Positions 36,765 to 57,673 of a DNA stretch of 64,000 nt are shown here, one piece after another. A program made the position numbers and the translations under genes. This DNA is from Haliotis rufescens (Eukaryota). The stretch's first letter is position 1. Each line of letters starts with the position of its first letter. The DNA is taken from positions 5,952,001 through 6,016,000 of the forward strand of contig NW_025963846.1 of the NCBI RefSeq assembly GCF_023055435.1. The letters are read 5' to 3'. The notes beneath the pieces are model-generated. The model was not told the origin of the DNA and ran no database searches. It worked only from the letters and a program-made list of their open reading frames with translations.

Positions 36765-37650
36765 AGTAGAGAGAAAGTAATACCTTCCGGACAAAAGCAT
36801 TCCTGTGGAGCGTGGAGCACCAACAAAAGCATTCCTGTGGAGCATAGAATTTCAACAAATTCCTGTGGAGCATGGAATTTTCTAACAAAAGCATTCCTGT
36901 GGAGCATGGAATTTTTCTAACAAAAGCATTTCTGTGGAGCGTAGAGTAAAGAAACAAACAAAAGCATTCCTGTGGAGCGTAGAGTAAAGAAACAAACAAA
37001 AGCATTCTTGTGGAGCATACCACAGAGGTCAGTCAATACCTTCCACATAATAGAAGCAAATTTTGCTAAAGGAGACTAGCAGTAAGGCTGGCTCTGTATA
37101 TATTCGCTCTGTTCAAACATGTAACTATGGCACCGCTCATTAGTATCAATACACTAGAGGTAGCTCTCTCTTACCCACTCTTTACACGCAAGAGTAAATA
37201 TATTCGTGTGTGGGTTTTAACCGCTGAACCTGTTAACCCTTTCACCGAAGTCAATTCATTTATAATCATTTTACTCTAATTCATTCACGTTTCACTAAGT
37301 GTTAAAGGCGCATAGAGTATTGAAACAAACAAAAGCATTCTTGTGGAGCATACCACAGAGGGCAGTCAATACCTTTCACACAATAGAAGCAAAAGTTTGC
37401 TAAAGGAGACCAGCAGTAAGGCTGGCTCTGTATATATTCGCTCTGTTCAAACATGTAACTATGTCACCACCGCACATTAGTATCAATACACTAGAGGTAG
37501 CTCTCTCTCACCCCACTCTTTACACGCAAGAGTAAATCTATTCGTGTGTGGGTTTTGACCGCTGAACCTGTTAACCCTTTCACCGGTGTCAATTCATTAT
37601 AAACATTTTCTTTCTCTTCTTCATTCACGTTTCACTAAGTGTTAAAATAT
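36765..37650. repeat. left TIR and subterminal repeats
   Basis: Terminal 89 bp identical to the right end; tandem CAAAAGCATTCCTGTGGAGC units; a ~330-bp block present twice (~37000-37325 and ~37325-37650). Confidence 0.92.
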
Positions 37651-38142
37651 TATGTTATTATTCATAGTGGCATTCATTAACCTTTATCTATTAACATTTC
37701 TATCACTCTTTAACTTTTTATCTGTTTCAGTATGCTAACGTAACACTAAGGGTTAAAGGTTGCTTTTAGACGATCACCAACTAGTCGCTGTTACTTGTGT
37801 TCGTCATTATGTTAGAACTTGAGTAGAAAGTATACATTATACCCATCGACAGATGTGTAATTCGTATGTTTTCTGCTTTATGACATATAACTAATTGATG
37901 TAATAATAATAATGAAAAATAAAAGTGAACTTACCTTTTGACTGATCAACACTGTTTCATTAATCATTTCCTCCATATATTCCGTTTGAATTAACCATCC
38001 GCTCAGTTCATATTTGGTTTAATCATATTTATTCCATCAATTGTTCATGACAGTATTTAGCAAACAAGCCGAGCTGGCTTATGAAAATGCTTCTCCTGAT
38101 TACATATATATATATATATAAACATAAATCAGTCAGGATCAA

Positions 38143-38818
38143 TTAATATATACTTTTAACTAAATCACTAACTAGCCGATCGCTTCCCGATACAGTGTAT
38201 GACACAAGAAAAAGCTCAGAACATAGCAAATTAGAGTTTAACAATAACTGTTCATATTTCATCGAATATACGAACGAGTGTATGTCTGTCACATTTTTCA
38301 ACAACCTCAAGTTTTTACTCGTATGTTTCGTAATATCTTCGAGTTTTACTATACATGAAAACAGTTCCCGAAGCGAATCGTTTGCAAGTAAATCACTCTT
38401 CAGAGTGCTATTGAATTTTCCCACATCTACTTTTTCTTCTTGTTCTTTGTTATATCCTCAAGTTTTTCTTGCACAAGTTTCGTCATATCCTCGTGTTTTA
38501 CTGCACACGAAAACAGTTCACTCAGTGAATCGTTGGTACGTAAAACACATAACAGTGTTCTGTTGAATTTTCTCACAACCACTTTCTTGTTCTTTGTTTT
38601 GAATAACGTTTATATTTTCTGCAGAAGGTATGTGTTCTTCTTGCCACTCTTCTCATCTCATTTCGAAGTTTTTCTTTTCTTTTATCATAATCAGCAATTA
38701 ACGTCTGAGCTTCCAAACAACGAATTTGTTTTTCCACTAAAAGCACTGATCGATTGTTTGGTTCAGCGGTTTCACTTTGTATTCCAAGCGATCTTAAAAA
38801 AACCTCTTTAGACGTCAT
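38143..38818 (-). pseudogene. possible degenerate or frameshifted Polinton accessory gene with ~150-bp internal duplication
   Basis: Two charged ORF pieces (81 and 93 aa); 38330-38425 is similar to 38480-38575. Confidence 0.35.
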
Positions 38819-39371
38819 TTTGTAAAATCTAATTTCTGGTGGTGTTTTGGGGTTTGTTTTTTTCGAAGTACCCCTTGCTGTACTAAAATGTATAGCTTAA
38901 CTATTCCTCCGCTCTTTTATAACAACTACGCTTTATACTTCTCTTTCCTACTTTTTTGTTGACCTATGTGGGAAAAGTAAATCTTATTCATTTTCAAACC
39001 GCAAACTTATATTTCAACACGTGTGGGAAAAGCAAATATCAATCAGTAGACCAGAGTCTATTCTTTATCTGTTACTATTTACTAACGACGTCGGTAGGCT
39101 GTAATTATTTATCTTATCTAACGAAATTTGACAACTGATACGTCGGCGGTAGGTTGCTATTATGTATCTTATCTAACGAAATCTGTCAACTGTTACAATG
39201 TCAAGATATCCCCAAGCAGAATACGTTCAAATACGATTAATTTGTCACGCGCACTTTGAATAGCACCGGTGTTCGTTGTGTTAGAAAAACCACACAAAAA
39301 TGTTTTACAGATTCATATAAATATATAGCGTATGCGATTTTATTTATTTTTTAGTATTCAGCTGTCTTGTC

Positions 39372-39722
39372 ATGCCGTTCGAAATCTCTTTTAAATCTGA
39401 TTGGACATATAACATCGAATTTTATAACGAAAATACTTCTATTAGCGTGTGCAATCATCTGAAACCAATTTTGAAATCTTTTTTAATTTATATTTTAGAC
39501 GAAATTTTAATTTATAGAAATAGTTTTCACCTTCATAACGCTTTGTTAACTTATGATATTTGTTCAACACATTTTACTTTGAACCGGCAGACTGAAGTGT
39601 TAACTGTAAATCAGTCAAATGGACAAGTGCAGCTGTCAGTAGGTGAAATTCGGGATATAATTTCATCTGTTAATCTATTGGAGCATTTTTTCCAAGAAAG
39701 AGTATTCCAAAACAAATTCTGA
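39372..39722 (+). CDS. Polinton hypothetical protein (116 aa)
   Basis: ATG-initiated ORF after a TATAAAA element (~39316) in AT-rich sequence; no recognised motif. Confidence 0.45.
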   Translation: MPFEISFKSDWTYNIEFYNENTSISVCNHLKPILKSFLIYILDEILIYRNSFHLHNALLTYDICSTHFTLNRQTEVLTVNQSNGQVQLSVGEIRDIISSVNLLEHFFQERVFQNKF

Positions 39723-40125
39723 AAAGGTAAGTTTTTATTTTATTATTTAATTTTAACTATATGCATTGCAATCAGTATTAATAGCACATTGTGTAAAGAA
39801 CGTAAATCTATCACCCATTCGCAACTTTATTACATGTTTACGGTATATAATGAATTTATAAGATTTAAGATGATTATATATGTTGGTCAGGACAGAATAG
39901 GCGGTTGGGGTGAGGAAAGACCAACTGATAATACATGTTTTACAACAGTCGCAAGGAAATAATGTCTATACCCTATATTCATTTTCATCTTGATCACTCT
40001 ACACAATGTTTTCATAGTCGTACACAATGGATGACCTTTCAACTACAAAAGTCCATTCAGACGTCAGATTCTATAAATCTAGCAGCGTGCGAAGTTAGTT
40101 TTTTTTTCACTCTGCCTGTGAAAAA

Positions 40126-40413
40126 ATGTCCGTTTCGTTTATGCTGAGAAATCCCACTCGCACAGATTATAATTTCGGTATTAGGCAACTTCGTCATTCT
40201 ATTTTTTTAAATTTTATTTCATCACGAAATTTGCTCTTTATTCTACAAAATCCACAGATAGAAAATAATATCAGTATTTTCTGTAAAATTTATTTTCGTA
40301 CGGATTTTACAGGAGCAATTATAATCCACGGAGAAGTGTTTATTTATTTAACAAGGAGACAATTAAAAAACCTTCAAAGTTGCCTGGAATTGTCGTTGCG
40401 CTTATCAACGTGA
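40126..40413 (+). CDS. Polinton hypothetical protein (95 aa)
   Basis: ATG ORF overlapping the end of the 39935-40147 ORF; no recognised motif. Confidence 0.4.
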   Translation: MSVSFMLRNPTRTDYNFGIRQLRHSIFLNFISSRNLLFILQNPQIENNISIFCKIYFRTDFTGAIIIHGEVFIYLTRRQLKNLQSCLELSLRLST

Positions 40414-40619
40414 GTATCTCTTTTATTTTCGTTGGTTATTCTTTGTAACTAGAAAGAAGGTTATTCGTTGTCACTTGTAACAAAGCTTTAATTTCATTCC
40501 ATTATCGACTTTCCTTTGATGACGCTCATGTGAGCGGCTTTCATCTCTCTACTACGTGTCATTTTGCACGTATAACAATGAACTGTCAATTTCGGGTGGG
40601 TTGTGGTATGGTGGTATTG

Positions 40620-40730
40620 TTTTATCCAATCAGCACGATCACATTTTGCACATGTGTTAATGTATTGCCAATGTTTGGCTGTTATTGAATATCCAATCAG
40701 AGTACGATATTAATTGTATATAAAAACCGT
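40620..40730 (+). promoter_or_regulatory. Pol II promoter of the membrane-protein gene
   Basis: Two ATCCAATCAG CCAAT boxes (~40624, ~40691) and TATATAAAAA (~40718), about 70 nt upstream of the ATG at 40793. Confidence 0.65.
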
Positions 40731-40792
40731 TGAAATCGCTAATTTATACCATTGAGAGAAAAAAAAAAAAAGAAAGAAAGAAAAAAAAAAAA

Positions 40793-41354
40793 ATGTTGAT
40801 AATAGTTTTGATCTACGTTGTTGTCGGTATTTCACATGGTGATGCTTTGCCGTGCTCATGGATCGGAGGATCAACTTTATCATGCTCTACCGAACAGCAT
40901 AAGTCAATTTCTCTTTTGTCCGGTCAACTCTATCGAGGAATATCCGTCATAAGAATTCACGGTTCACCATCACTGCTGCTAATCAACGGTGATTTGTTTC
41001 CACAACTGCAGGTATGCTATTCTATTTCTGTCCTGTCCTGTCCTGTCCTGTCCTGTCCTGTCCCGTCCTATCCTGTCCTGTTCACAGTCTAGTCTATTCT
41101 ATTCACAGGCAATTATAGGAGACGTGGACTGCAGCCGTGTTGTCGGCGTTCAGGTGCCGGTGAATGGCAAGTGGTGCAGTGGTAAGTATTTCATATATTT
41201 AGTCTGATTGACTGTTATTTTTCGTAATTAGTTACAAACTTTTTATTTTCTGTTGAACCTTTTATTTTGAAATCTTGTATTGCACAAACTTTATATTGTT
41301 TTATTATTGTTTTGCTTTCAGAGCTATCAACAACTGCTATTTCTTTATCTCTCT

Positions 41355-41385
<31 letters not shown>

Positions 41386-41959
41386 TACTACTACTACCAC
41401 TATCATTACTACTCTCCCTCCTACTTCCTCTACTGTTAGAATTAATAGCCTCTCATTGTTTCCTGCTACGGTTAATACTTCCACTTCTACTGCAGCTACT
41501 ACTACTGCACCAACTACCACAACTACTAATCCTGTTGTTACTAACCCTACTGCTACTACTACTACTGCTACTACTGCAGCTACGTCTACTACAGCTACTT
41601 CTCCAACTACTAATCCCGTTGTTACTAACCCTGTTGGCACTAACCCTGTTGCTATTACCACCTCCACAACTTCTACTGTTTCTTCTGTTAAATCATCTAC
41701 TCTGATTATTACCGGTTCTGTTGCTAATATTTCTTCACCAACTTCCACCGCTGATATCCGAAGCACCCGGTTATCAGATTCTACTATCGTAGGTATAACT
41801 ATTATTATTATTATCATCATATTCTTTCTGTTAATGGTTTTTTATTTGGTTTATCGAAAAAGGAAAGGTAATCATACAAGGTATATATCACCTCCTCCAG
41901 ATATAGAAGATAATGAGATAGAATTGTTTACATTTCAATCTAAAGTTAATAAATGTTAA
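40793..41959 (+). CDS. spliced type I membrane glycoprotein, mucin-stalk isoform (exons 40793-41011, 41109-41181, 41322-41959)
   Basis: Signal peptide MLIIVLIYVVVGISHG, small ectodomain with 4 Cys, Thr/Ser-rich stalk, TM segment IVGITIIIIIIIFFLLMVFYLVY, basic stop-transfer RKRK; canonical GT-AG introns with matching phases (0, 1). Confidence 0.8.
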
Positions 41960-42000
41960 AATTTTATTCTAACACTTTTATATTTTTATTTTTATTTTTT

Positions 42001-42033
<33 letters not shown>

Positions 42034-42068
42034 TTTTTTACCTATTCTTCACTTCATTTACCCATCAG

Positions 42069-42479
42069 CAAGACCCTATCACCCCTCCCATCCCTACACT
42101 ATCAGCAACGGCGATGGCTATGATGATGATGATCATCATGATGAGGAGTGTCGTGGTTGTGGTAAGTATTATTATAATTTAGTGTCGTGTCTGTGGTAAA
42201 TTTGAAGTTATAAATGTAATACTTGGATTTGGAGTTTATATTAATTGAACTTTAATTTTTAACTTTAATTTAATTATTACTTTTTCAGTGATGAAGTCGG
42301 AGGTGACGGCACTCCTCATCATGGCTGTCCTGGCTGCGGTGGGCATTCCGTCGGGACTCGCTTTGCGGTGGTTTCTCCGCAGGAGACGGAATGCCCGCCG
42401 CACCCTTCACCGTCACCGTCGCGAGGAGGAGGAGCACGATGAACCACCTCACCTCAGGCGGGAAGTAACAGAATTGTAA
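42069..42479 (+). CDS. alternative 3' exons of the same gene (42069-42161, 42289-42479): His/Asp spacer, TM segment, Arg-rich tail
   Basis: 93-nt phase 1-1 exon ARPYHPSHPYTISNGDGYDDDDHHDEECRGC joins in frame to VMKSEVTALLIMAVLAAVGIPSGLALRWFLRRRR...TEL*; AATAAA follows at ~42506. Confidence 0.7.
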
Positions 42480-42643
42480 TCAATAACGCATTAATCCTTG
42501 TAAACAATAAATTCTATGATTATGATAAAAATATATGTTTTATGTCTTGTTTTATCTAGTAACGTTGTAGTCTTGCGAGCGTTTTTCCGATAAACCCGCC
42601 AGAGTTGATTGTGGTATATATATATAATATATGTATGTATATA

Positions 42644-42687
<44 letters not shown>

Positions 42688-42801
42688 ACCTCGAAACCAG
42701 TTGGAAACAAGTCATTAGCCTTCACGGTTGTCACTGGTAAACCCCGTCAAAACAAAGAAAGCCGGTTGGTATGAATACATATACCGAAATACGGATGAAG
42801 C

Positions 42802-43037
42802 GAGCGACCTACTCGTCTGATCCAAGGGAGGTAACTCGTATCACACTAGTGGCTCATATCAATTTGTCAGACCAAGAGAGCGACCGGCTCGCCTGATCCG
42901 AGGGAGGTAACTCGTATCACACTAGTGGTTCATATCACATTGTTAGACCAAGAGAGCGGCTGACTCGTCTGATCCAAGGGAGGTAACTCGTATCACACAA
43001 GTGTCTTATATCACGCATTGATATACCAAGAGAGCGA
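42802..43037. repeat. three ~76-bp direct repeats containing CTGATCC.AGGGAGGTAACTCGTATCACAC
   Basis: Unit starts at 42802, 42878 and 42954. Confidence 0.9.
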
Positions 43038-43189
43038 ATAACTATGAATTGAAACATAAAACATACACACATTCTGATTTTAAATATGCTTTTTTTATTT
43101 TAGAAAACACAGTGAAATGCTTGCGTATGTGGCAATAATATCCGTGATGTAAATAAATCTACGTTGAAGCAGTCTTTTTCTTTCTCGTC

Positions 43190-44046
43190 TCAACGAACAT
43201 TGTACCCCTCGATGGCTGAAAAGGAAGGGTGAATTATTAATAATAATAATAATAATAATAATAATCCAAAGCACTCAAAGCAGTACCAAAACTGATTCCT
43301 AAATGGTTGTACACTACTGCTCGCAAGTTAGTCACCGTTGTAAATACACTACTTTACGAAAGTTTATGTCCGTGAAAATGCAAAATACAGTGCTAAAGTC
43401 ATTATAAACTACCGCTCATGCTTTGTTCCGAATGAGAAAGTGTAGTAACCGCGAAATATAAGCAATGGCTGTACACTACCGCTCGCAAGTTAGTCACCAT
43501 TATGAAATAGGCTACTAAACAAAAGTTTATACCCATGAAAATGAAAATACAGAGCTGAAGTCATTTATAAACTACTACTCATGCTTGTTTTTAATGATAA
43601 AACTGTTGTAACCACAACATTAAAACACACCTGTATTATATCAAAACTAACTTACCATCAGCATAACCCCGCTTCAGTTGGTTAGTTACCGGATTGGTTC
43701 TTCCTGTTGTTAGCGTTTTACCAGCTGGCATCGTTCCGGTAGGCATATTTCCGACAGCAGCAGGATAAGAGGGCGGAGGTGGGGGTACCATGTCGCTTCC
43801 CGTCTGAGGAATACCCGGAATGACTGGAACTTCGCATGCCATCTCATAGCCCTCCAAAGCAGATAGAATTTGTTCGCGATCTTCAAACAGTTTTCTAAAT
43901 ACACTGCTTTTCAAGGAAATGGTTTTCCTTTCCTTTTTGCTGTTGTAGTTTGAAAGATGCACCCAAGCATCATCGCGAAACAAGTTGATGGACAACCAAT
44001 GTCCAGCAGCCCACTCAAACGTAGTGTGGTTGTGATTGTCAGACAT
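43190..44046 (-). CDS. PC4/p15-like ssDNA-binding protein, two exons (44046-43656, 43215-43190)
   Basis: FEWAAGHWLSINLFRDDAWVHLSNY...KTISLKSSVFRKL follows the PC4 pattern; Pro-rich tail with PPPPSY; donor GATG|GTAAGT joins in frame to TTTTCAG|CC ATC GAG...CGT TGA. Confidence 0.65.
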
Positions 44047-45200
44047 TTTTGAGTAAAGTGTCTTCTCCACTAACCACTATCACGTTGTATTTATACTCAC
44101 TCCTCAAGTAAGGTGATTCAGCATGTTGACACTTTCTCACGGGAAAAACTACTTCATTATGTTACCTTGTTCTTTTCAAATGGTATCAACTGTTACACCC
44201 CACATACAAATGGAGTATACATTTACTTCTGACTCACTATACTTTGCTTGTAAGTGATGGTATACGATTTTTAATTAGTACGTTTTCTAGATACTCCCCT
44301 GTTTGATCAGTCGGCAGCCCTATAGACTTAACAAGAGCGAATCCACAAAGCCACCACTTGTTACTCTATCATTTTTAATCAATATCGAGTTTTTAGTAAC
44401 ACACTCTCTATACAGCTCTTTCATTAAGGAACATCTGTACTTTTAAAGTGTCACGTTTTCAGCACCATCCCATGGTAAACACTCAACAACAATAAATTGT
44501 ATAGCTTGTGTACTCAGTCAAGGTGATTCAGCAGTTCATTTTTATATAGTCTTTCATAAAGAAACACCTGTGCTTTTAAAGAGACACGTTTTCAGTACCA
44601 TCCCATGGTAAACATTTCCCATCAATAACAAAAATAAAATTAAAAAAGTTGTATTGCTTGTGTACTCGGTCAAGGTGATTCAGCAGTTCATAGTACTACC
44701 CTATTATACACCCCGCTTGATACATCTGTCTTGAAGCAACCTGAAACTGTTTTGAATAGCAGCCAAACCACTCATGTTCATTGTTAGCAGCTGTTTGCAC
44801 TTAAGTTTGAACTAATATTTCTATAGAGCTCCAAAATGTATAGTTTGGAATAAGAAGTCCATTCACTTTTATATTTTTCACCATTTTCGTCTGAGAAATT
44901 GCCAAGGCAACATCAACCAAAAGTGTACAGGAAACGTTAACCATTAACACGCATCCTTAGGATAGGAATCTCCAGCAAAAGAGCAAGTACTCCACTTTTA
45001 CTGCATACTTACACTTTGACATTTGTTAGATTATTTAAAACTTATACACTTAACGTATTATTTAAAACTTATTATCACGATATAATACTTAAAACTGATA
45101 GTAACCATTTTAGTTTAATGCTTAGTTGATGTTCGTTTTTGTTTTTTTGTTTTCAGGTAACTACCAACTCATACACACTTAGTTGGTGAATACCTATTTA

Positions 45201-48200
45201 ATGACTATGTACACCACGAGTAGAGACTCCTACTGTGAAAATTGTCACACTTGTTTTGGTTTTAAAAGAAATTTAACAAGACATCAACAAATATGTGGGA
45301 AAGTTGGGGATCAATTTTCATGTCAGTATTGTAGAAAATATTTTTCCAGAAAAGATAGTTTAAAACGACATGTGAAAAGCTGTCAAAAAGTAGTCAATCC
45401 TTTGGTTTGCCAATGTTCACTGTGTTTTCAACACTTTACCCATGAACTTGCTTTTCAATCACACTTACCACATTGTCTAAACACGACTTCGCAATATGAT
45501 TCTCCTTCCACCTCATCACCACCTCCCATTCCTTCCTCCTACCCCCCTCCACCGCCCATCCCCTCCTCTGATGTTTCTCCTTCTTATCCCAATCCCTACC
45601 TCATAAACGAGATTTCGCAAAATGATGTAACCTGTCAGACTTGTCAGACAATGTTTCCAACTTCGAAAGCATTGCGACTGCATAAGAATAGAACAGGACA
45701 TGATATGTGGGGTGGTAGCAAAGGCAAGTTAAGTAGGAAAAAAACGGCTACAGTATCTGCACTTCCATCCAACCCTTCTTTGCCTCCCATTCCCTCCCCA
45801 CCAGGTACTCCTCCTAATCCTGAACCTGTTGGTGACACTTCTGATCATGCTCGCCCATGTACCAGCGAATCTTTAGGTGGAGATGTGAGAGAGTATGAGT
45901 TTAAAGGACAGGGTGCTACAGATGCTTTACATTTTATGGTGAATCAACAAGCTGTCATTATTGATGTGATCAAGACAGAACTCAGAGAGAAACAGTCAGT
46001 GAAATGGGGATTATGTCTTCACATCAGAATGGTTAAACCTACTGAAGATGAAACAGCTAATATTCACGAGGCTTACTTTCGAAGCACAATGGTCATAGCT
46101 ACACAAGGAACCAATTTGTCCGATCAATACCTTGAAGCCATGCACAAGATATTGCGTTCACTAGATAATTATCAGGGTGAACATTCTAATTTAAACGTGC
46201 TAGACATTGCAATGATGAAAGTGATCATCGTTAAATTTAAGCCTTTTAAAGGCGGTACATACATCCCTCTTCCCAAAGAAATTGCATACAAAACTAAAAG
46301 TGTTGTGAATGTAGAAAACAATGATGAGATGTGTTTTATCTATAGCATTTTAGCCAAACTGTTTCCCGCTCTGCATCATCCAACACGGGTGAAGCATTAT
46401 CAACCTTTTGTGAACAGATTGAATTTGGATGGGTTTACTTTTCCGATGACACTCAAACAAATCCCACGATTTGAACAAGTCAATCAGTTGAGTATCAATG
46501 TGTATGGCTTCGAAGATAAGACTCTCTATCCACTTTACATAAGCAACGTATCCAACATAGAACCAGACAGTCAAATTGATTTGTTGATGCTTTCACAAGA
46601 GAATGAGCCCGAAGATTTTGAAGGATTCATAGGCCTAGAGGGTCATGAACTTATGGATGTAGAAACGAAAGCAGACACCCATTTTTGTTTGATCACTAAG
46701 TTGAAAAATTTTGTCAAAAACCCTGAGAAAAAACGTAGTAACCAGTATTATATTTGCAGAAAATGTTTGTGGACATACAGCTCACAAGAAAGGTTGAATA
46801 AGCACAAGGGGTATTGTTTTGATAAAGCTCAGCGTGTCAATATGCCTAAACCCGAGAAAGCAGTCTATCAGTTTGGATTACGATCTGAAGCTAAAACAGA
46901 AAGAGCTAAATTTCTTATTGTGGCCGATTTTGAAAGTTTGCTGTTGCCAGTCGAAAATCATGCATCGCGTTTGAACAGACATGTTCCTTGTGCCTATGCT
47001 TACAAAGTTATTTGTTCAGAGCAGCGGTATTCGAAATCTGTTCAAACCTATGTAGGTTCAGATGCAGCAGAACACTTTATTCAAGACATTTTAAGAGAAT
47101 ATGATGAAATTAAGGAGATCTTTGCCAATGTTGTTCCCATGCAATTATCTCATCAGGATAGGACAAGCATAGCAAACACAACTCAGTGTGGATTATGTGG
47201 AAAAGAGTTAGGGAAAGATAGGGTGTTAGATCATGACCATCTCAGTGGTGCTTTTAGACAAGTATTACACAACAAGTGTAACCTAAATTTCCAGCTGCAA
47301 AAGAAAGTGTATCTGATGTTGCATAATTCAGAGCGTTATGATACGCATCTTATTCTTGAAGCAGCACGTGAATTTGGAGAGAGAAGTATTCAGATCATAC
47401 CCCATAATTCTGAACAGTTTCTGTCTTTTACTGTCGACAATGATCTGGTCTTCCTAGATTCTTGCAAATTTTTGCAAAGCTCTTTAGATGCTCTGACTAA
47501 GAATCAGATGAATAAAGGATTAGACACATTTGTTTTCTTGAAAGAGCAGTTCCCACAGCATGTTGGTATAATGACTCGAAAGCTTCCTTTTCCTTATGAG
47601 TACATGGATTCATGGGAAAAATTAAATGACACACAGTTGCCACCTAAAGAATCCTTCTACAGTTCCTTGAGTGATGAAGGCATTACTGATGAAGACTATG
47701 TCTTTGCCCATGAATTGTGGCATACATTCGCATGCAACACAATGTCTGACTTTACACGGTTGTATGTGGTTGTAGACACACTGTTGTTGGCTGATATTGT
47801 CGAAACATTCAGAACTGGATGTTTAGCAGATTATGGACTTGACATCTGTCACTACTATTCCATGCCTGGGTTTTGTATTGATGCAGCACTGAAAGTCACC
47901 GGGGTCAAGCTTGATCTCTTCACTGATGTAGATAGTTACAATTTTGTGGAAAATTCCATTCGGGGAGGCGTGTCTGTCATCGGTAAGAAATTTGCCGAAA
48001 GCAACAATGAATACATGTCTAATTATAACCCAGAAAAAGAGGCCTCAGTGCTTCTGTACATGGACTTTAACAGTCTTTATTCTGGAGTTATGCTGGAACC
48101 CCTACCTATTGGTAACTATCAGTTCATGTCAGCACAAGATTATGAAACTATTGATTGGGTTACAATAGATACCCAAGGGGATACAGGTTACATTTTGGAA

Positions 48201-49367
48201 GTGGACTTGCACTATCCTAAACATTTACACAAACTTCATGCTGCTTTCCCCATGGCTCCTACCCATGACAACATTCCCTTTGAGGACTTTTCACCTTATC
48301 ACAAAGAGTTACTCAGCCAGTTCTATACCTCCCAGTGTCAAAAACCCTCAGGCAAGAAATTGTTTGCTACTTTAAAAGATCGCTTGAACTATGTGGTTCA
48401 TTTCAAAACTTTGCAACTGTATTTGAGACATGGGCTAGTCCTCCAACACATTCATAGAGTGTTAAAGTTCAAGCAAGGTCCCTGGTTGAAACCCTATGTT
48501 CAGTTAAATTTGGAAAGTCGCAAACACGCAACTGATGCCTGTGACAAGGACCGATATAAACTTATGAATAATTGTGTGTTTGGCAGGTTCTGTATGAATA
48601 AACGCAAGCGGAAATCCGTGCACTTAGTGACCCAAAGACAGCAATTTCGCAGTTATGTAGCTAAAACCAATTTCAAGCAGGTGAAAGTGTTTTCAGAAGA
48701 TGTTGTGTCCGTGGAAATGGAGCAAGTGTCTGTCCTTTTAGATCAACCTATCGCTGTTGGTTTCAGTATTTTGGATTTAGCCAAATTTCAAATCCTTTCT
48801 TTCTATTATGACGTCATGCAACAGCAATATGGACCAGAACGATTGGACTTGCTCATGACAGACACAGACAGTCTCTTTTTGCACATTCATGCCCCTCCAC
48901 ACGAGACTTTGCTTGATCCCTACATATTCATGAAGCAAAATCTGCATTTGTTTGATACTTCCAATTATGATCAGAACGATCCTAAAGGATTGTATTCGAA
49001 TGAAAACAAAAAAGTCACAGGAAAGATGAAGGATGAAGCTGCAGGAAAGATCATTTTAGAGTTTGTAGGGTTGAAAAGCAAAATGTATTCCTTTTTGATA
49101 CAATCAGATGAGAACACTGTATCAAACCAAAAGACAGCTAAAGGAATAAAGAAATCTGTCATTGCTAAGCAATTGACCCATAAGAAATACAAAGACAGTC
49201 TCCTGGAGAGGAAACCTTTTTATTGTTCCTATTCACTCATTCGCTCTCACAATAACACTTTATACACTGAGTCATTAAGCAAAATAGCATTATCCCCCTT
49301 AGATGATAAACGTTATGTACTAGAGGATGGTATATATAGTTTACCCTATGGGTATTCACCAGTCTAA
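45201..49367 (+). CDS. protein-primed family B DNA polymerase (pPolB) with N-terminal zinc fingers, vOTU-like and EndoVII/HNH-like regions
   Basis: Exo motifs VADFES, HNSERYD, YVVVDT; Pol motifs YMDFNSLY, KLMNNCVFG, MTDTDS, KSKMY; DHDHLSG...HNKCN insertion; C-terminal LSPLDDKRY. First ATG at 45201 (ORF open from 45183). Confidence 0.97.
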   Translation: MTMYTTSRDSYCENCHTCFGFKRNLTRHQQICGKVGDQFSCQYCRKYFSRKDSLKRHVKSCQKVVNPLVCQCSLCFQHFTHELAFQSHLPHCLNTTSQYDSPSTSSPPPIPSSYPPPPPIPSSDVSPSYPNPYLINEISQNDVTCQTCQTMFPTSKALRLHKNRTGHDMWGGSKGKLSRKKTATVSALPSNPSLPPIPSPPGTPPNPEPVGDTSDHARPCTSESLGGDVREYEFKGQGATDALHFMVNQQAVIIDVIKTELREKQSVKWGLCLHIRMVKPTEDETANIHEAYFRSTMVIATQGTNLSDQYLEAMHKILRSLDNYQGEHSNLNVLDIAMMKVIIVKFKPFKGGTYIPLPKEIAYKTKSVVNVENNDEMCFIYSILAKLFPALHHPTRVKHYQPFVNRLNLDGFTFPMTLKQIPRFEQVNQLSINVYGFEDKTLYPLYISNVSNIEPDSQIDLLMLSQENEPEDFEGFIGLEGHELMDVETKADTHFCLITKLKNFVKNPEKKRSNQYYICRKCLWTYSSQERLNKHKGYCFDKAQRVNMPKPEKAVYQFGLRSEAKTERAKFLIVADFESLLLPVENHASRLNRHVPCAYAYKVICSEQRYSKSVQTYVGSDAAEHFIQDILREYDEIKEIFANVVPMQLSHQDRTSIANTTQCGLCGKELGKDRVLDHDHLSGAFRQVLHNKCNLNFQLQKKVYLMLHNSERYDTHLILEAAREFGERSIQIIPHNSEQFLSFTVDNDLVFLDSCKFLQSSLDALTKNQMNKGLDTFVFLKEQFPQHVGIMTRKLPFPYEYMDSWEKLNDTQLPPKESFYSSLSDEGITDEDYVFAHELWHTFACNTMSDFTRLYVVVDTLLLADIVETFRTGCLADYGLDICHYYSMPGFCIDAALKVTGVKLDLFTDVDSYNFVENSIRGGVSVIGKKFAESNNEYMSNYNPEKEASVLLYMDFNSLYSGVMLEPLPIGNYQFMSAQDYETIDWVTIDTQGDTGYILEVDLHYPKHLHKLHAAFPMAPTHDNIPFEDFSPYHKELLSQFYTSQCQKPSGKKLFATLKDRLNYVVHFKTLQLYLRHGLVLQHIHRVLKFKQGPWLKPYVQLNLESRKHATDACDKDRYKLMNNCVFGRFCMNKRKRKSVHLVTQRQQFRSYVAKTNFKQVKVFSEDVVSVEMEQVSVLLDQPIAVGFSILDLAKFQILSFYYDVMQQQYGPERLDLLMTDTDSLFLHIHAPPHETLLDPYIFMKQNLHLFDTSNYDQNDPKGLYSNENKKVTGKMKDEAAGKIILEFVGLKSKMYSFLIQSDENTVSNQKTAKGIKKSVIAKQLTHKKYKDSLLERKPFYCSYSLIRSHNNTLYTESLSKIALSPLDDKRYVLEDGIYSLPYGYSPV

Positions 49368-49563
49368 GAGTATGTGGTAATGCTGTTCAAGTTCCACATT
49401 TTAGAGATGGGTGATTGATACAGGTACCCTCCTCCTTTTTTGCCGAATGTTATCCATTTTTAATTTAACAATAATAATAATTCTAATATTAATAGTAATA
49501 ATTGCTGTTATCATCACACTTAAAGTGTTTCACTCATTTAATTATCTTTATGATTACAGCAAC

Positions 49564-50178
49564 ATGAGTACCACCGGATTCATTTACCAGTTAAGACGAA
49601 ACGGCGGCAATGACATACTGTATTATGAAGGTAGAAGCTTCCGAAGAAGCCATGAGGATGCCATGCAGGCAGGTTTACAGCGTGCAAGAAGAATGTTCCA
49701 TCAAGACGAGAATCATCAAACACCCAACTATTCAGTAACTGTGCGTGAAATTCACATCAACAGGAGACAAATAACCAATCGCTTACAGCTGCGTCGAAAC
49801 AAAAGACTTTTCGTAGGCATCTTGGAAACTCACTATCTCAATGAACTCCAGAGACTTGTTCGGAAGTTATGTTGTGATAATTGTTATGGATGTGAAGTTA
49901 ATCATCCATCGCAAGTACATCACCAGTGTCTCATGATGAACAGTGACGAGTGTATTACTCAATACTTTGATCGTGCAGTGAATGAGCTGCCCCTTCATAC
50001 CATCTTGGAAAAAGCCAAGCAACAGAGGGTAAGCCTTGGGCTAGAGTTTCAGGATCAGCACACTGTGCATTTCAATGACACCGATTATATGCATAGTCAT
50101 TTCTTCTGCAATGACAGAAAAGAAAGACTTGAGATGCAGCTCAGAGTCCTTATGAACATGGAAGATAGTAATAACTAA
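49564..50178 (+). CDS. Polinton accessory protein with CxxCxxC...HxC motif
   Basis: Likely start MSTTG after an acceptor-like TTACAG; motif CCDNCYGCEVNHPSQVHHQCL. Confidence 0.75.
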   Translation: MSTTGFIYQLRRNGGNDILYYEGRSFRRSHEDAMQAGLQRARRMFHQDENHQTPNYSVTVREIHINRRQITNRLQLRRNKRLFVGILETHYLNELQRLVRKLCCDNCYGCEVNHPSQVHHQCLMMNSDECITQYFDRAVNELPLHTILEKAKQQRVSLGLEFQDQHTVHFNDTDYMHSHFFCNDRKERLEMQLRVLMNMEDSNN

Positions 50179-50264
50179 AAGTCGCATGTGTTAGCATTAT
50201 TTTATTGCTTTACAATCTGAAAGTTACATAGAATATATATCATGAATTCAATGTACATGTACAG

Positions 50265-50867
50265 TTAGAAAATATCTAGTTTTCTTAATTTTGCAGTAGT
50301 GTTAGCACCGGGTACACCATGTTGTGCTTGTCGTTTTATATATAAAGATGATTTTGCCTTTTTTCTTTTGTCGTTCTTTTTCTTGACATCTGGCTTATAC
50401 AAAAGCCGCTTCGGTACATGGAGCATTTTTAAAAGATTGAGAAAGTCATGGTAGCCTGAAGGAACAGCCCCACGATGCATCACAGTAAAACGAATGAGGT
50501 CAATAACGTTAGTTCCGATCCACACATTCTCATTATCTAAAACAATTTCGAACTGATTATTCAGTCTGAAGTGAGCATTTCTGATCTGATCCTTGATAAA
50601 GTACCATAGTTTGACAAGTTTGCCAATCGTTTTAGTTAATGACACATCCTTAAGAAGTAGATCCAGAATCAAGTTCGTATTCGCTTTAATCTGTGCTTCA
50701 TCATGGGTGATTTCTTCAGGGGTCTCATTCGGTCTCAGAGGACTCGTCTCCTGATCTGGAGTCACTGTCATTATCTGTTGTTCCTGTGTCACTGTCTTCT
50801 CCTTTTCCTGGTTGTCTATTAGACGTTGGTATGTGTTTCTGTTCAGGAGAACCATAGGTCTGCTCAT
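50265..50867 (-). CDS. conserved Polinton hypothetical protein (200 aa, basic C-terminus)
   Basis: GTNVIDLI...PSGYHDFLNLLKMLHVP resembles a recurrent Polinton ORF; sits in the structural gene cluster. Confidence 0.75.
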   Translation of the reverse strand: MSRPMVLLNRNTYQRLIDNQEKEKTVTQEQQIMTVTPDQETSPLRPNETPEEITHDEAQIKANTNLILDLLLKDVSLTKTIGKLVKLWYFIKDQIRNAHFRLNNQFEIVLDNENVWIGTNVIDLIRFTVMHRGAVPSGYHDFLNLLKMLHVPKRLLYKPDVKKKNDKRKKAKSSLYIKRQAQHGVPGANTTAKLRKLDIF

Positions 50868-51180
50868 GATGTAGGTAATCTAACAGTGCAGCAATGCAAA
50901 TAGGCAAGATGGAATGATGTCTTATCAACACCTCCTTTTTAACCCGATTGGGAAAACCTTCTTTGGCAGCCAATGTTCTAATGTGAAACCTATGACGGTG
51001 CAAGCGAGTTTTATCCATCAGTGAGAGTGGAATATTCCCTTTCAAAATGTTTAACATCATGCTATTAATAGCATGCATTTGTTCACATGACACATATTGA
51101 AGTAAAGCTTTTCTCTGCTTCACATTAGCCTGCAGTAGTGTTTGAAGAAAAGACAGATGTTTTTCCAGTAAATCACCCAT
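50725..51180 (-). CDS. conserved small basic Polinton protein (putative virion core protein)
   Basis: KQRKALL...LNILKGNIPL...LHRHR..IRTLA pattern typical of a small Polinton ORF; overlaps the next gene. Confidence 0.75.
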   Translation of the reverse strand: MGDLLEKHLSFLQTLLQANVKQRKALLQYVSCEQMHAINSMMLNILKGNIPLSLMDKTRLHRHRFHIRTLAAKEGFPNRVKKEVLIRHHSILPICIAALLDYLHHEQTYGSPEQKHIPTSNRQPGKGEDSDTGTTDNDSDSRSGDESSETE

Positions 51181-51299
51181 ATTGAAGTGAGGAGATCACA
51201 ATGTGAAATGATCCAACTAGGTAATTGTGTCTTATATATATATATATATATATGTATGCTTAGACTCTAATATTCCTCATACACCATAGCCAATGTCTC

Positions 51300-51629
51300 T
51301 CATTCAGTATTAGAAGCTATCATGTTTATGTAACTACACTGAGGTGATAACCTGAAATGTTCAGTTAGTGGATCATCTTCTGGCATCCATTTATGTACAC
51401 GCAATCGACACATGAAACAGTAGACTTTATCTGATTGACCCGTGTAAATGAATCCTGCTTGTGCCATAGTCTTCAGTGACTGTTTCATTTGCATGGGCCA
51501 ACTGACAAAGGACTTTAATCTCTCACAAAAGCTATGACCATACACTTCAGCATTGGTTGAAATCACTGAACAATCGTTAGCAATATCTTCAAATCGTCCG
51601 CAAACATCCATGATGATCTTGGTAAGCAA
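51300..51629 (-). CDS. single-BIR inhibitor-of-apoptosis protein
   Basis: ERLKSF.SWP, AQAGFIYTG..DKVYC, and an exact C-x2-C-x16-H-x6-C zinc motif; no RING domain. Confidence 0.93.
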   Translation of the reverse strand: MLTKIIMDVCGRFEDIANDCSVISTNAEVYGHSFCERLKSFVSWPMQMKQSLKTMAQAGFIYTGQSDKVYCFMCRLRVHKWMPEDDPLTEHFRLSPQCSYINMIASNTE

Positions 51630-51686
51630 CTGATCTGTTCATTGGTAAGACAGGCAACTGGTGGGTATAACTTTGAGCAGTAGCTT

Positions 51687-52388
51687 TTATTTGGGTTGGT
51701 ACACAATACATACTTCATCTGGAAAGACACCACTGCGCAGACGCCCATACTGAGGATCGGAATAGGGTGATACATCAATCATTAAATATTGAAATTTCTT
51801 TCCCTCCACTGCATCACGAAATGATTCAGTAAAATATTTGGCTTGACCCGGAAATATTTGAGATGCCAAGATTTTATATTCATGTGCAGAACGTGGGTTA
51901 GATAGCAAAATGAAGTAGTGTGTATTCAAGGAAATAGTTCGGTTACAATCCCCCTTAGGATAAGCAGACTGTTGAATATTTATAACACTGATTCCCCAAT
52001 GATGAGACAATGTAGTGTAGAGATTTAACATCAGTGGACTTTTACATATATCCATCATCATGTCATCCATGACCAACACCATGTTCTTTTCAGATTGCTC
52101 AGACCACATTTTCAAATCATTCTCAGTTGGAAGGGAATCCATAAAAAGAATGTTAGAAATGTTTTGCCGCATGTCACTGTAGATGTCTTGCCATACAGTA
52201 TAACAGTACACAATAAGGTTGGGAGGTTTGTCAAACATCAGATTAGTCTGCTCTAACAACCTTTTCACCCAAACTGTTTTCCCTGAGGAAGATCCACCAA
52301 TCACAGATATGGTGGTAGGTGTTTGTATTGGTAAGAGACACTTACGTTCCATGATCACACTCTGAGCACAATAATTCAACTGTGACAT
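51687..52388 (-). CDS. A32/FtsK-like genome-packaging ATPase
   Basis: Walker A GGSSSGKT, Walker B VLVMDD, SHHWGISV..IQQ, RTISLNTHY. Confidence 0.95.
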   Translation of the reverse strand: MSQLNYCAQSVIMERKCLLPIQTPTTISVIGGSSSGKTVWVKRLLEQTNLMFDKPPNLIVYCYTVWQDIYSDMRQNISNILFMDSLPTENDLKMWSEQSEKNMVLVMDDMMMDICKSPLMLNLYTTLSHHWGISVINIQQSAYPKGDCNRTISLNTHYFILLSNPRSAHEYKILASQIFPGQAKYFTESFRDAVEGKKFQYLMIDVSPYSDPQYGRLRSGVFPDEVCIVYQPK

Positions 52389-52488
52389 TACAGCTGAGTT
52401 ACTTATATTTATAGAACAAACTCGAATGACTACACTAATTTCTTTTTTATTTTATTTTTGTAATGGGTTACACAAGTACAGTAGTATG

Positions 52489-52983
52489 TTACATGACACA
52501 GGTATGACAAGATAACAAACAATATCTAAAATAATTACAGATAAACTTTGACACATGCTCATCATTGTTAAAACGGACTTGCACATCAAATATCTGTACA
52601 AAGGTTTGAAGGGTAAGTTCTGTTTTGCATTTATACAACAAATAATATAAACAATAATGACCACAAAGGTTGGACGATGAGGACTGTAACTGTCTTCTGT
52701 TGTGTTGGTATTGATTGACATATGTTTTTAAGAACAAGTCAAAAACGGAATTCACTGGCTCACCCAGACTGTCAAACAGTTCCCCTGTATTTCCTTTGAA
52801 GTACATAGCCACCCAGTGACGACCCAGTCTTCCAGATGGATCAGTATTGACAATGAGACCCACTCCACGTGCAAGCATGACACTAGTTAGCACAGGTAAA
52901 GTATCTTTGGCAAACACACCTAAGACCTGGTACTTTAAGATGGAGTCACTTTGAATAGCACATGCAAGGTCAGAGGCTTTCAT
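52489..52983 (-). CDS. adenain-like cysteine maturation protease
   Basis: IVNTD...GRHWVA (His), FDSLG (Asp), LQ.....CGHYC (Gln/Cys). Confidence 0.95.
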   Translation of the reverse strand: MKASDLACAIQSDSILKYQVLGVFAKDTLPVLTSVMLARGVGLIVNTDPSGRLGRHWVAMYFKGNTGELFDSLGEPVNSVFDLFLKTYVNQYQHNRRQLQSSSSNLCGHYCLYYLLYKCKTELTLQTFVQIFDVQVRFNNDEHVSKFICNYFRYCLLSCHTCVM

Positions 52984-52988
52984 GTTTT

Positions 52989-54290
52989 TTACTTCACAAA
53001 CACGTTCCTGGTCTTGTCAATTTCAATGAGGGAATTTCTTTCACTCAGAACAACACAACTGAGTGTTTCAGTGAGGGCGTTTTTGAACTCGATTTCTAGT
53101 CGGGTGCTACCAGATTTCAACAGATTCAGATAGTCGGTTTCACTGCATACTTTATCAATGTCAAAGACGAACAGGGCACTCCCAAGCAAAAAGTCGCTCC
53201 GAGTGATTCCGTTTCCTGTATTTTCTTTCCACAGACACATCCCATCAAACATCTGCACGTAGGACTCAACATCATCTGCCTGCATGGGACGTCCGGGGAC
53301 ACTGGCACCATTGATGTACAGGCTGATGTTTTTCACCATACTAGATTGGAAGTTGTAGGGGTTACCAGTGTAAGATCCATTCAAGCTGTTGCTGAGTACA
53401 AAGCCTACAATGTAACGATTAGCAATAGGATTCGACAGATTGTCAATGGTATGTGTCAGTTGAGTGGTGGGGATGCTTGTCACCTTGACCTCACTTTTGG
53501 TGTAAGGATACAGAGCATTGCTGTCTTGAAACAAGGTGTTGTGAGCCAAAATAAGAGCTGGATTGACTTTCAGTTTACACACCTTCAGGTAGGTATCCAG
53601 AATTTCTACCTTGTAATCTTGACCTGTTTTGCCACTCATCAAACAGAACTGGGGCGAGGAGCGGTACAGCTTCATTGTCAAATCCACTCCATTGACTAAA
53701 TGTCTGTTCATGTGAAAGATATCTTCATACAATGGTCCCGACATGGTCAAGACTTTACTATTATTAATGAAGCCACCACGAGATTGCACTCCTGTATTGA
53801 GACCAGTGTAGGGATCGGATGATTCTACATCATTGATAGATTCAGACACATCTTTGTAGAAGAGTTGAGATGACAGCTGTGAAGTTTTAGCTTCTGTTCC
53901 ATAGTTGAGTAGAGTTTTCATCATGCTCTTGTAAGCATAATGGTTGTTTGTAGAAGATACCAACTGATTCTGCAGATACACTGACACCTGGGAAAAGAGA
54001 GCCTGCAGAAACAAGTTGACAGGGACAATATGTTCCTTGTCATCGAGATCAGTGCCATCTGCATGTTTCACCTTGAGCTTCACATGTATGCGGGTACGGT
54101 TCAGGTCAATGTAATCACTTCCAGCATTCGTTACTTGAAATTCCAACGGTGAAGAATCATTGATTTGACTGAGTGGACGCACCTCATCAAAATAATGTTG
54201 ATGGATGCTGGTCTGGTATGGAGGTAAAATAAACAGATTGAGAGAGGGTGGTATCAGTTCCTCAAAGTCTTTATCATTCAACAGTGACAT
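52989..54290 (-). CDS. major capsid protein (double jelly-roll, PY)
   Basis: LNLF.LPP.QTSI, PLEF......DYIDL, PVNLFLQALFSQV, YAYKS...TLLNYG, NPYNFQ, G..RLEIEF; likely start MSLLND (ORF open from 54329). Confidence 0.93.
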   Translation of the reverse strand: MSLLNDKDFEELIPPSLNLFILPPYQTSIHQHYFDEVRPLSQINDSSPLEFQVTNAGSDYIDLNRTRIHVKLKVKHADGTDLDDKEHIVPVNLFLQALFSQVSVYLQNQLVSSTNNHYAYKSMMKTLLNYGTEAKTSQLSSQLFYKDVSESINDVESSDPYTGLNTGVQSRGGFINNSKVLTMSGPLYEDIFHMNRHLVNGVDLTMKLYRSSPQFCLMSGKTGQDYKVEILDTYLKVCKLKVNPALILAHNTLFQDSNALYPYTKSEVKVTSIPTTQLTHTIDNLSNPIANRYIVGFVLSNSLNGSYTGNPYNFQSSMVKNISLYINGASVPGRPMQADDVESYVQMFDGMCLWKENTGNGITRSDFLLGSALFVFDIDKVCSETDYLNLLKSGSTRLEIEFKNALTETLSCVVLSERNSLIEIDKTRNVFVK

Positions 54291-54292
54291 GA

Positions 54293-54643
54293 TTAACTGA
54301 AAACGTCGTTTTCTCGAATAGGGGTACACTGGAGAACCTTAGCGGTCTTTGATGGAATGTTATCTGTCTGACGGATCTTCTTTGAAGTGGCAATTTGGTC
54401 ACCTGCAGCTCGTTTTAAAGATTTCCGTCGCTTTTCTTTGGCATTGGCTCTCTCAACAATATTCTGCGTCTCTGATGTTACTTCCAGTTTGATCTTGGGT
54501 TCTTCAGTCTTCACTTGAAGTCGTGTCGGGATCACTTTCACCTGTGGTTTACCATTCACTAAGGCAGATGTTCCTTTCATGTGTTTCTTGAAATAGTGGG
54601 TCCATTTAACATAATCAGGGACATACAAAGGTGTGGACTCCAT
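54293..54643 (-). CDS. small basic Polinton protein between penton and MCP
   Basis: ATG ORF abutting both neighbours; Lys/Arg-rich C-terminus. Confidence 0.7.
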   Translation of the reverse strand: MESTPLYVPDYVKWTHYFKKHMKGTSALVNGKPQVKVIPTRLQVKTEEPKIKLEVTSETQNIVERANAKEKRRKSLKRAAGDQIATSKKIRQTDNIPSKTAKVLQCTPIRENDVFS

Positions 54644-54645
54644 GG

Positions 54646-55074
54646 TTAATCAATGAAGGGATACCGTCTCAAGTGCAGTGTCACATATGTCACTTCCTTT
54701 AGAAATGAGTGTGACATGCCGTTACTGGCCTTTATACGTACCTCTATGTGTGGAGATTCTTTGACTTTAATCGGAATATTGTATTCACATGCAAAGCTAT
54801 AGTAAGGACCTTGTCTGAGATCAAGCCGTCTCAATAAAGGCAACTGCTGTTCACCTGCCAAAGAACTATCACACAGATTGCATAACACGTCCACATATGG
54901 ATCATTCATGTGGGTGATGTCAAGTTTACCAAAATTAATCTCCGTTAAAGACACAACCCAGAATCCATCAAAATTCAACCTTTGATTTAGTTTAACACGA
55001 AAATGATAAGGCGTATTCTCATTAAAATAAGATTGTTTGGAGTCTGAGCTTTTGAGAAATATGTACCTTTCCAT
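54646..55074 (-). CDS. minor capsid protein (penton, PX), very short
   Basis: N-terminal YIFLKSSDS..YF.ENT...FRVKL...L...GFW.VSLTEI and C-terminal GEQQLPLLR...IEVRI...VTLHLRR penton signatures. Confidence 0.85.
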   Translation of the reverse strand: MERYIFLKSSDSKQSYFNENTPYHFRVKLNQRLNFDGFWVVSLTEINFGKLDITHMNDPYVDVLCNLCDSSLAGEQQLPLLRRLDLRQGPYYSFACEYNIPIKVKESPHIEVRIKASNGMSHSFLKEVTYVTLHLRRYPFID

Positions 55075-56213: not shown

Positions 56214-56410
56214 GATGAAATGAGAGAAGCACTGACAACAGACACCTATTAAAGAACAACCATTTGATAACTATCAAAAGAAGACAAACAAAGATGTAAG
56301 CATAATTTATGTTTTATTCATAGTATGAATATTGCTAAAGTACACACACACTCACACATACACACACATTTCATTTTGGTACTGATAAAATAATATGACA
56401 TGGAAACAGT

Positions 56411-57034: not shown

Positions 57035-57071
57035 AATAGCAAGTTACATCACTGTAACACATTTAAAACCA

Positions 57072-57578: not shown

Positions 57579-57673
57579 GATCAGATTCGAGATGTATACT
57601 GGCGTGAAGATTTCGTCTTGTTGACAAGATCGCTGTTTAAGCACGAATGAAAGCTTCAACAGTTTAACACTGC

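What the first reader, a model, noticed from the sequence alone, without database searches (positions are those of the whole stretch)
40793..42479. Five-exon viral membrane glycoprotein gene with two mutually exclusive C-termini
Seen: exons 1-2 encode a signal peptide and a small 4-Cys head and end in phase 1. They can splice in frame either to a terminal exon with a ~160-aa Thr-rich mucin stalk, TM segment and tail, or to a 93-nt His/Asp-rich exon followed by a second TM exon with an Arg-rich tail. The two donors are near-identical (GTG|GTAAGTATT). The ORF track shows only fragments of this gene. Inference: one head displayed on a long or a short stalk, possibly as a receptor decoy, immune modulator, superinfection-exclusion factor or envelope protein. 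That is unexpected for a supposedly non-enveloped Polinton.
Basis: partly seen in the sequence, partly recalled or inferred. Interest (0 to 1): 0.85.

Follow-up and report, generated by a model that had tools for sequence, protein, structure and literature searches.

The report
Polinton surface protein with two anchors
A virus-like jumping element in abalone DNA carries a spliced gene in which one splice choice would attach the same predicted surface domain and stalk to either of two membrane anchors, a layout shared by distant lineages of the element and likely used to interfere with host defence.

Summary
Assembled contigs of public runs join 41181>41322 and 42161>42289. They also reveal a hidden donor inside exon 3 (41792>42069) that joins the Thr-rich stalk to exons 4-5. 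The main forms are therefore head+stalk+TM-B (348 aa, spliced) and head+stalk+TM-A (309 aa, read-through). The short-stalk skip 41181>42069 exists only as RefSeq models and was not seen in 4 runs. The gene lies in the accessory arm of a 21.8-kb abalone Polinton. The hidden donor and second TM exon recur in two distant Polinton lineages whose heads are only 22-35% identical. Among close copies the head exons are under purifying selection (dN/dS about 0.2) yet far more diverged (exon 1 dS 0.6-1.2) than 15 other element ORFs (at most 0.18), which points to swapped head alleles. Many copies lack the gene, so it is accessory. No relative was found outside Haliotis; fold and ligand are unknown, and an LRR hint failed a profile test. 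Best reading: an adenovirus-E3-like surface immune modulator with two sorting tails (inferred).

The parts
36765..58561 (.). Polinton/Maverick element, 21.8 kb, with terminal inverted repeats and a 6-bp target-site duplication
   Evidence: inverted repeats; ends and TSD; core genes
40626..40726 (+). Putative promoter: three CCAAT boxes (40626, 40668, 40693) and a TATA box (40717)
   Evidence: 96-99% identical among 5 copies; start site not shown, contigs extend further upstream
40793..41011 (+). Exon 1: predicted signal peptide (about 18 aa) and first 55 aa of the Cys head; phase-0 donor
   Evidence: E1>E2 junction inferred from the 56-nt record 10 of X2
41109..41181 (+). Exon 2: rest of the head (2 Cys); phase-1 donor
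   Evidence: joint 41181>41322 in X2
41322..41792 (+). Exon 3a: 156-aa Thr/Ser-rich mucin-like stalk, ending at the hidden phase-1 donor
   Evidence: length a multiple of 3 in 4 of 4 complete copies; record 12
41793..41959 (+). Exon 3b = 5' part of the retainable intron 41793-42068: TM-A (about 41786-41854), basic cluster, 35-aa tail, stop; AATAAA at 41948
   Evidence: read-through contig X1 record 4; similar TM-A in distant lineages
42069..42161 (+). Exon 4: His/Asp-rich linker with CxxC, phase 1 at both ends
   Evidence: Asp-rich phase-1 counterpart in C301 and C57
42289..42479 (+). Exon 5: TM-B (about 42306-42374), Arg-rich stop-transfer segment, His/Glu tail; AATAAA at 42506
   Evidence: E4+E5 dN/dS 0.22-0.43 in 5 of 6 pairs, 0.94 in the near-identical pair
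42137..42323 (+). RNA stem of 19-22 bp between the end of exon 4 (42137-42154) and exon 5 (42306-42323), closing intron 4
   Evidence: z -3.9, 0 of 200 shuffles; present in 5 of 5 close copies; not in distant copy C57
43636..44046 (-). Neighbouring 136-aa accessory ORF (PC4-like by recalled resemblance; no Pfam match) found beside distant homologues too

Best explanation
This spliced accessory gene of an abalone Polinton is predicted to put a small Cys-bonded head on a sugar-coated stalk at the host cell surface; use or non-use of a donor inside exon 3 would decide which of two membrane anchors and tails it gets, and the head likely binds a host defence or recognition factor. Shown: gene structure, splicing of 41181>41322, 41792>42069 and 42161>42289, a read-through contig over TM-A, purifying selection, and the same two-anchor layout in distant lineages. 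Inferred: surface location and O-glycosylation; that the read-through RNA is a mature message; that the tails sort the ectodomain differently (TM-A tail with Tyr and acidic residues towards uptake or internal sorting, linker-CxxC plus TM-B towards stable, possibly disulfide-linked display); that head alleles are exchanged between elements by recombination because the ligand varies; and that the ligand is an immune factor, as for adenovirus E3 CR1 proteins.
For: Splice joints in contigs of X2, and matching contig lengths in X1 (59.5 spliced versus 20.9 read-through depth). Internal donor present in 3 of 3 close complete copies and in 3 of 4 distant copies (C57, C90, C5; not C301). Window TM-A scores 47, 46 and 41 against distant TM-A (0, 1 and 4 of 2000 shuffles); TM-B scores 63 against C57 TM-B (0 of 2000). 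Exon 1 head dS 0.62-1.17 against 3 of 4 copies, while 15 other element ORFs stay at or below 0.18 and promoter, intron 2, stalk and TM-A are 96-99% identical. 7 of 8 distant-head loci have a Polinton-type gene in the stretch fetched. Absent from 5 of 6 capsid-picked copies whose left arm matched, so it is not needed to copy within the genome. The same hypervariable, recombined pattern is described for HAdV-D E3 CR1 (PMC6141750, passages).
Against: No ligand, fold or localisation is shown. No family match and no relative outside Haliotis. The TM-A form is seen only as an unspliced contig running on into exon 4, which could be pre-mRNA, and X2 shows no TM-A cover. Intron 1 is mostly retained in the contigs (X2 27 versus 9.2; only the retained path listed for X1), which would stop the frame at 99 aa. 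The runs are RNA by guess, and X1 and X2 are one sample. TM-B of C301 and C90 does not score above shuffles (160 and 92 of 2000), and window TM-A also cross-scores with C301 TM-B (3 of 2000). Head dN/dS is below 1, so there is no direct sign of positive selection. All distant copies are decayed. The same data fit exclusion or attachment roles.
Confidence: 0.45

Rival explanations
1. Superinfection-exclusion factor: the head occupies or removes the entry receptor of related Polinton particles, or blocks them sterically with the stalk; head types define exclusion groups.
For: Old head types swapped within near-identical backbones; transcripts of this gene are present in contigs; specific to Polintons.
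Against: No particles or receptor known for this family; many recent copies lack the gene; no published parallel listed (0 papers).
Confidence: 0.2
2. Envelope or attachment protein of an enveloped Polinton particle; one anchor serves the particle, the other the cell.
For: Nematode Mavericks carry a TM fusogen and are proposed to be enveloped; a variable head on a mucin stalk resembles attachment glycoproteins (recalled); conserved across lineages.
Against: Too small for a fusogen and no fusogen-like ORF was recognised in this element; lies in the accessory arm and has introns, unlike core genes (PMC8097293); lost in copies whose capsid ORF is still open.
Confidence: 0.17
3. Captured host gene carried as passive or selfish cargo, like nematode wasp/krma genes, with the two ends inherited from the host gene and of no use to the element.
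For: Introns, promoter boxes and position between a TIR and the core match described Maverick cargo; patchy presence; weak LRR-like features in the language-model search.
Against: No host parent found in the genome (1 of 8 distant loci lacked Polinton genes nearby); long-term purifying selection and a kept layout inside elements; no profile match to host LRRNT-LRR proteins.
Confidence: 0.12
4. Only the spliced TM-B form matters; TM-A is a chance reading of an (ATT)n-rich intron.
For: TM-A is partly an Ile run; few substitutions, so its dN/dS is unstable (0.14-1.13); no annotated protein holds the TM-A tail.
Against: 54 open codons have about 1.5% chance at local composition; TM-A plus basic cluster plus tail recurs in C301, C57 and C90; AATAAA sits at its stop in 4 of 4 complete copies.
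Confidence: 0.06

Closest known systems
Adenovirus E3 CR1-alpha/beta/gamma proteins (HAdV-D)
   Same: Accessory genes of a non-enveloped virus related to Polintons, from a spliced unit; hypervariable within a conserved genome and exchanged by recombination; immune-evasion role (PMC6141750, passages). That they are type I membrane glycoproteins is recalled.
   Different: No sequence match found; here one gene has its own five exons and two anchors; host is a mollusc; the element integrates.
Intron-containing cargo of nematode Mavericks (wasp, krma) and the fusogen MFUS-1
   Same: Spliced gene in a variable region between a TIR and the core; MFUS-1 has a signal peptide and one TM (10.1101/2022.07.12.499685, passages).
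   Different: wasp and krma are protease and kinase cargo; MFUS-1 is 866 aa and gB-like. Neither a mucin stalk nor alternative anchors appear in the passages read.
Internal-donor versus read-through switch of immunoglobulin mu (recalled, no call)
   Same: A donor inside the last ectodomain exon competes with read-through to a stop and poly(A) signal, changing only the C-terminus.
   Different: Here both outcomes are predicted membrane-anchored, and the gene belongs to a virus-like element.
RefSeq LOC124127212 / XP_048252636.1 (Haliotis rufescens), XP_071098453.1 and XP_071105171.1 (H. cracherodii)
   Same: Same gene; the first is identical to E1-E2-E4-E5.
   Different: Uncharacterised models that omit the stalk, TM-A and the internal donor.

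Membership tests
Polinton/Maverick (carrier element) | [quoted passage not shown] | tested here: met
Polinton/Maverick (carrier element) | Protein-primed family B polymerase | tested here: met
   1388-aa ORF with motif A, B and C-like words at 955, 1120, 1221 (motifs recalled); no Pfam polymerase hit at E 0.1
Polinton/Maverick (carrier element) | Retroviral-like integrase and A32-type ATPase | tested here: met
   rve E 1.6e-10, Pox_A32 E 3.1e-5
Polinton/Maverick (carrier element) | Adenovirus-like protease | tested here: inconclusive
   Peptidase_C5 E 0.017, below cut-off
Polinton/Maverick (carrier element) | Double jelly-roll major capsid protein | tested here: inconclusive
   433-aa ORF assigned by position only; no Pfam or PDB sequence hit
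Adenovirus E3 CR1 proteins | CR1 domain homology | tested here: not met
   no such Pfam or PDB match
Adenovirus E3 CR1 proteins | Hypervariable ectodomain types in a conserved backbone | tested here: met
Adenovirus E3 CR1 proteins | Binds and modulates host immune proteins | not testable with these tools
   needs binding and cell assays
LRRNT/LRR ectodomain proteins | Profile or structure match to LRRNT plus LRR repeats | tested here: not met
   hhalign probability 0.2-0.3%, 21 of 100 shuffles as good (against only 5 host proteins); no Pfam LRR; language-model scores 0.90 and 0.83 are leads only; folds uninformative
Maverick fusogen MFUS-1 | About 870-aa gB-like ectodomain | tested here: not met
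   longest form 348 aa with a head of about 80 aa
Mucin-stalk type I membrane protein | Signal peptide, Ser/Thr-rich stalk, single TM with basic residues after it | tested here: met
   hydropathy and composition only
Mucin-stalk type I membrane protein | O-glycosylation and surface display | not testable with these tools
   needs expression

The most novel reading that the evidence does not exclude
Abalone Polintons carry an old family of surface receptors whose ligand-binding head comes in exchangeable types, like serotype cassettes, and whose splice switch gives one head two anchors, for example one for the infected cell and one for an enveloped particle. That would be genomic evidence that these elements have an extracellular, infectious phase under immune or exclusion selection in molluscs.
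Probability: 0.25. Interest if true: 0.85.

Novelty: new variant of a known kind. Interest (0 to 1): 0.68.

Why it matters
Whether animal Polintons are real viruses is a long-standing open question. A selected, spliced surface protein with exchangeable heads is what a virus facing an immune system or competitors would carry, and a pure transposon has little use for it. The gene gives a concrete handle: two isoforms, several natural head types, and copies with and without it in one genome. It also shows that Polinton accessory arms hide multi-exon, alternatively processed genes that ORF scans miss and that RefSeq models only in part.

Tried and rejected
AlphaFold2 of P0001 twice: pLDDT 38.7 and 36.8, unusable; Foldseek on the second model gave no match at E 0.001. 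LRR origin: not supported by profile comparison. Duplication origin of exons 4-5 from exon 2/intron 2: the stretches align above shuffles with splice signals included (0 of 1000), but intron interiors do not (47 of 500), so it is not claimed. An alternative donor at 41789 does not fit the three letters in X2 record 12. phmmer hits P0004 and P0005 are repetitive chance matches. Metagenome locus L062 is a 10-residue chance match; viral contigs gave none. No listed holder was on record as RNA, and lack of cover in any run is not used as evidence. X9 joint 42098>42311 is non-canonical and was treated as a likely artefact. No complex prediction was sent. Expression of the core genes was not examined. 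Our-findings look-ups by place, sequence and the first word set returned nothing.

Full report
Setting. The gene lies in the left arm of a 21.8-kb element (36765-58561) with terminal inverted repeats and a 6-bp target-site duplication. The element encodes a 1388-aa polymerase-like ORF, an rve integrase, an A32 ATPase, a weak C5 protease match, BIR and NADAR proteins. The 433-aa ORF is taken as the major capsid protein by position only (no hit). This is a Polinton. The host is an abalone: the E1-E2-E4-E5 product is identical to RefSeq XP_048252636.1 of Haliotis rufescens, and two H. cracherodii models have the same shape.

Observation. All five exons, their GT-AG introns and phases are as described. 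In 5 natural copies the head exons show dN/dS 0.08-0.35 in 10 of 10 pairs, and exon length changes keep frame. The gene is real.

What RNA shows. I laid 4 of 24 listed runs (X1, X2, X5, X9; contigs; RNA by guess; X1 and X2 are one sample) on 40450-42590. X2 has GT-AG joints 41181>41322 and 42161>42289. X2 record 12 runs 41584-41787, three letters, 42067-42160, then 42288-42334. That fits only a donor at 41792|41793, phase 1, just before TM-A. In X1 the contig ends fall at the same place (record 3 ends five letters after 41787, record 4 starts at 41763, record 6 is 30+28 letters), with depth 59.5 for the spliced and 20.9 for the read-through path; this X1 reading is inferred from lengths. The joint 41181>42069 is listed in 0 of 4 runs, and X2's contigs pass both of its ends without a break; 27 pieces were not shown. 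So the forms are B (E1-E2-E3a-E4-E5, 348 aa), A (read-through, 309 aa) and, on annotation only, C (191 aa). Results against a tidy picture: intron 1 is mostly retained (X2 27 versus 9.2 for the inferred junction contig; only the retained path listed in X1); contigs run upstream of the TATA box; the A path continues unspliced into exon 4 and may be pre-mRNA; X5 and X9 list no canonical joint.

Distribution. I fetched the expected slot in 20 copies: 16 picked by capsid match and 4 picked because they hold the gene. Of the 16, 6 matched the window's left arm by DNA: 5 lack the gene (three by replacement of 40409 to about 44090 with 1.2-1.55 kb of unrelated DNA; two by deletion) and 1 keeps only its end. 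Of the 4, 3 are complete and 1 is cut after the stalk. The insertion sites differ. One complete copy has an altered exon 5 acceptor and another lacks the first ATG. The gene is accessory.

Head exchange. Against C368, C423 and C46a the exon 1 head has dS 0.62-1.17 and exon 2 0.49-0.64, whereas 15 other ORFs of the same elements have dS at most 0.18; the fourth copy, C614, is near-identical throughout. Promoter, intron 2, stalk and TM-A are 96-99% identical, exon 5 is intermediate (dS 0.27). Old head types therefore sit in young backbones. Recombination is the simplest cause (inferred; no tree test run).

Distant lineages. Weak hits led to 8 further loci; 7 of 8 have a Polinton-type gene in the 20-40 kb fetched. 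Heads of the three two-anchor lineages are 22-35% identical pairwise (12-19 of 55-56 columns) and end exon 1 at the same phase-0 donor. C301 and its sister C57 sit in the same slot as the window gene and have TM-A and a tail after the stalk, then an Asp-rich phase-1 exon and a TM-B exon. C90 has stalk, acidic linker, TM-A and tail, then a phase-1 TM-B exon without a separate linker exon; in C5 TM-A is cut short and no TM-B exon was found. The internal donor at the start of TM-A is present in C57, C90 and C5 and missing in C301. TM-A matches TM-A in 3 of 3 comparisons (0-4 of 2000 shuffles), TM-B matches TM-B in 1 of 3. All distant copies are decayed. The two-anchor layout is thus old and kept.

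What the head is. No Pfam or PDB match; only Haliotis proteins in the large searches (3 hits; 1 true hit of 3; none for the TM-A region). A language-model search leans to LRR proteins (0.90 and 0.83), but a profile comparison with 5 host LRRNT proteins is at chance and both folds failed. The fold is unknown.

Mechanism. Most likely the element, when transcribed, displays a variable binding head on a mucin stalk; use of the internal donor adds the His/Asp linker, CxxC and TM-B, while read-through gives TM-A and a Tyr/acidic tail. Different sorting by the two tails and an immune ligand are inferred, by analogy with adenovirus E3 CR1 (0.45). Exclusion (0.2), particle attachment (0.17), passive cargo (0.12) and a chance TM-A (0.06) remain.

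Literature. Read as passages only: 10.1101/2022.07.12.499685 (intron-containing cargo and a TM fusogen in nematode Mavericks); PMC8097293 (two accessory regions, no introns seen in genes of intact vertebrate elements); PMC8502044 (membrane-active accessory proteins; no occurrence of 'transmembrane', 'splic' or 'glycoprotein'); 10.1101/2023.08.22.554363; PMC6141750; PMC11131425; 10.64898/2026.10.13.758929. Searches for a description of this gene or of alternative anchors in Polintons showed none in their listings; only listings were seen, most subscription journals are not held, and supplements (unread; closed for bioRxiv) could list the ORF. The immunoglobulin mu comparison is recalled. Earlier scan notes report other spliced Polinton accessory genes, one a mucin-stalk membrane protein (unchecked).

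Verdict. Observation partly confirmed and corrected; interpretation partly supported; a new variant of a known kind (spliced Polinton cargo, E3-like logic). Interest 0.68.

Noticed in passing
window 42137-42154 and 42306-42323: A 19-22-bp stem joins the end of exon 4 to exon 5 in 5 of 5 close copies; after splicing it would be a hairpin of pre-miRNA size. Not present in distant copy C57.
   Followed up: partly
window 41012-41108: Intron 1 holds a (CTGTC)n repeat of variable length and is mostly retained in contigs; read-through gives a 99-aa ORF without a TM segment.
   Followed up: partly
G000 C112, C583, C357 (L027-L029): Three copies share the same replacement of window 40409 to about 44090 by unrelated DNA that begins with a SINE-tail-like stretch (recalled resemblance), at different insertion sites.
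   Followed up: partly
L004 and L007 intron 4, L008: An extra acceptor-like partial duplicate of the start of exon 5 lies upstream of the exon 5 acceptor; absent from the window copy.
   Followed up: no
window 39372-39726 and 40126-40409: Two upstream ORFs end at strong donors (39727, 9 of 9 consensus matches; 40410, 8 of 9), suggesting further spliced accessory genes.
   Followed up: no
window 45019-45200: An acceptor-like site at about 45159 lies just upstream of the polymerase ORF, hinting at a spliced leader or extra first exon.
   Followed up: no
window 51300-51611 and 57072-57578: The element carries single-domain BIR (IAP-like) and NADAR genes, both plausible counter-defence cargo.
   Followed up: no
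window 33647-35005: Host MGAT2 glycosyltransferase ORF lies 1.8 kb left of the element.
   Followed up: no
G000 C5:478001-518000: Two different Polinton families lie side by side around a distant homologue of the gene; which one owns it was not settled.
   Followed up: partly
G000 C605:46533700-46534900: A more distant head-like frame is followed by a stalk of 9-residue Ser/Thr/Arg/Pro repeats; no TM exon found in 3 kb.
   Followed up: partly
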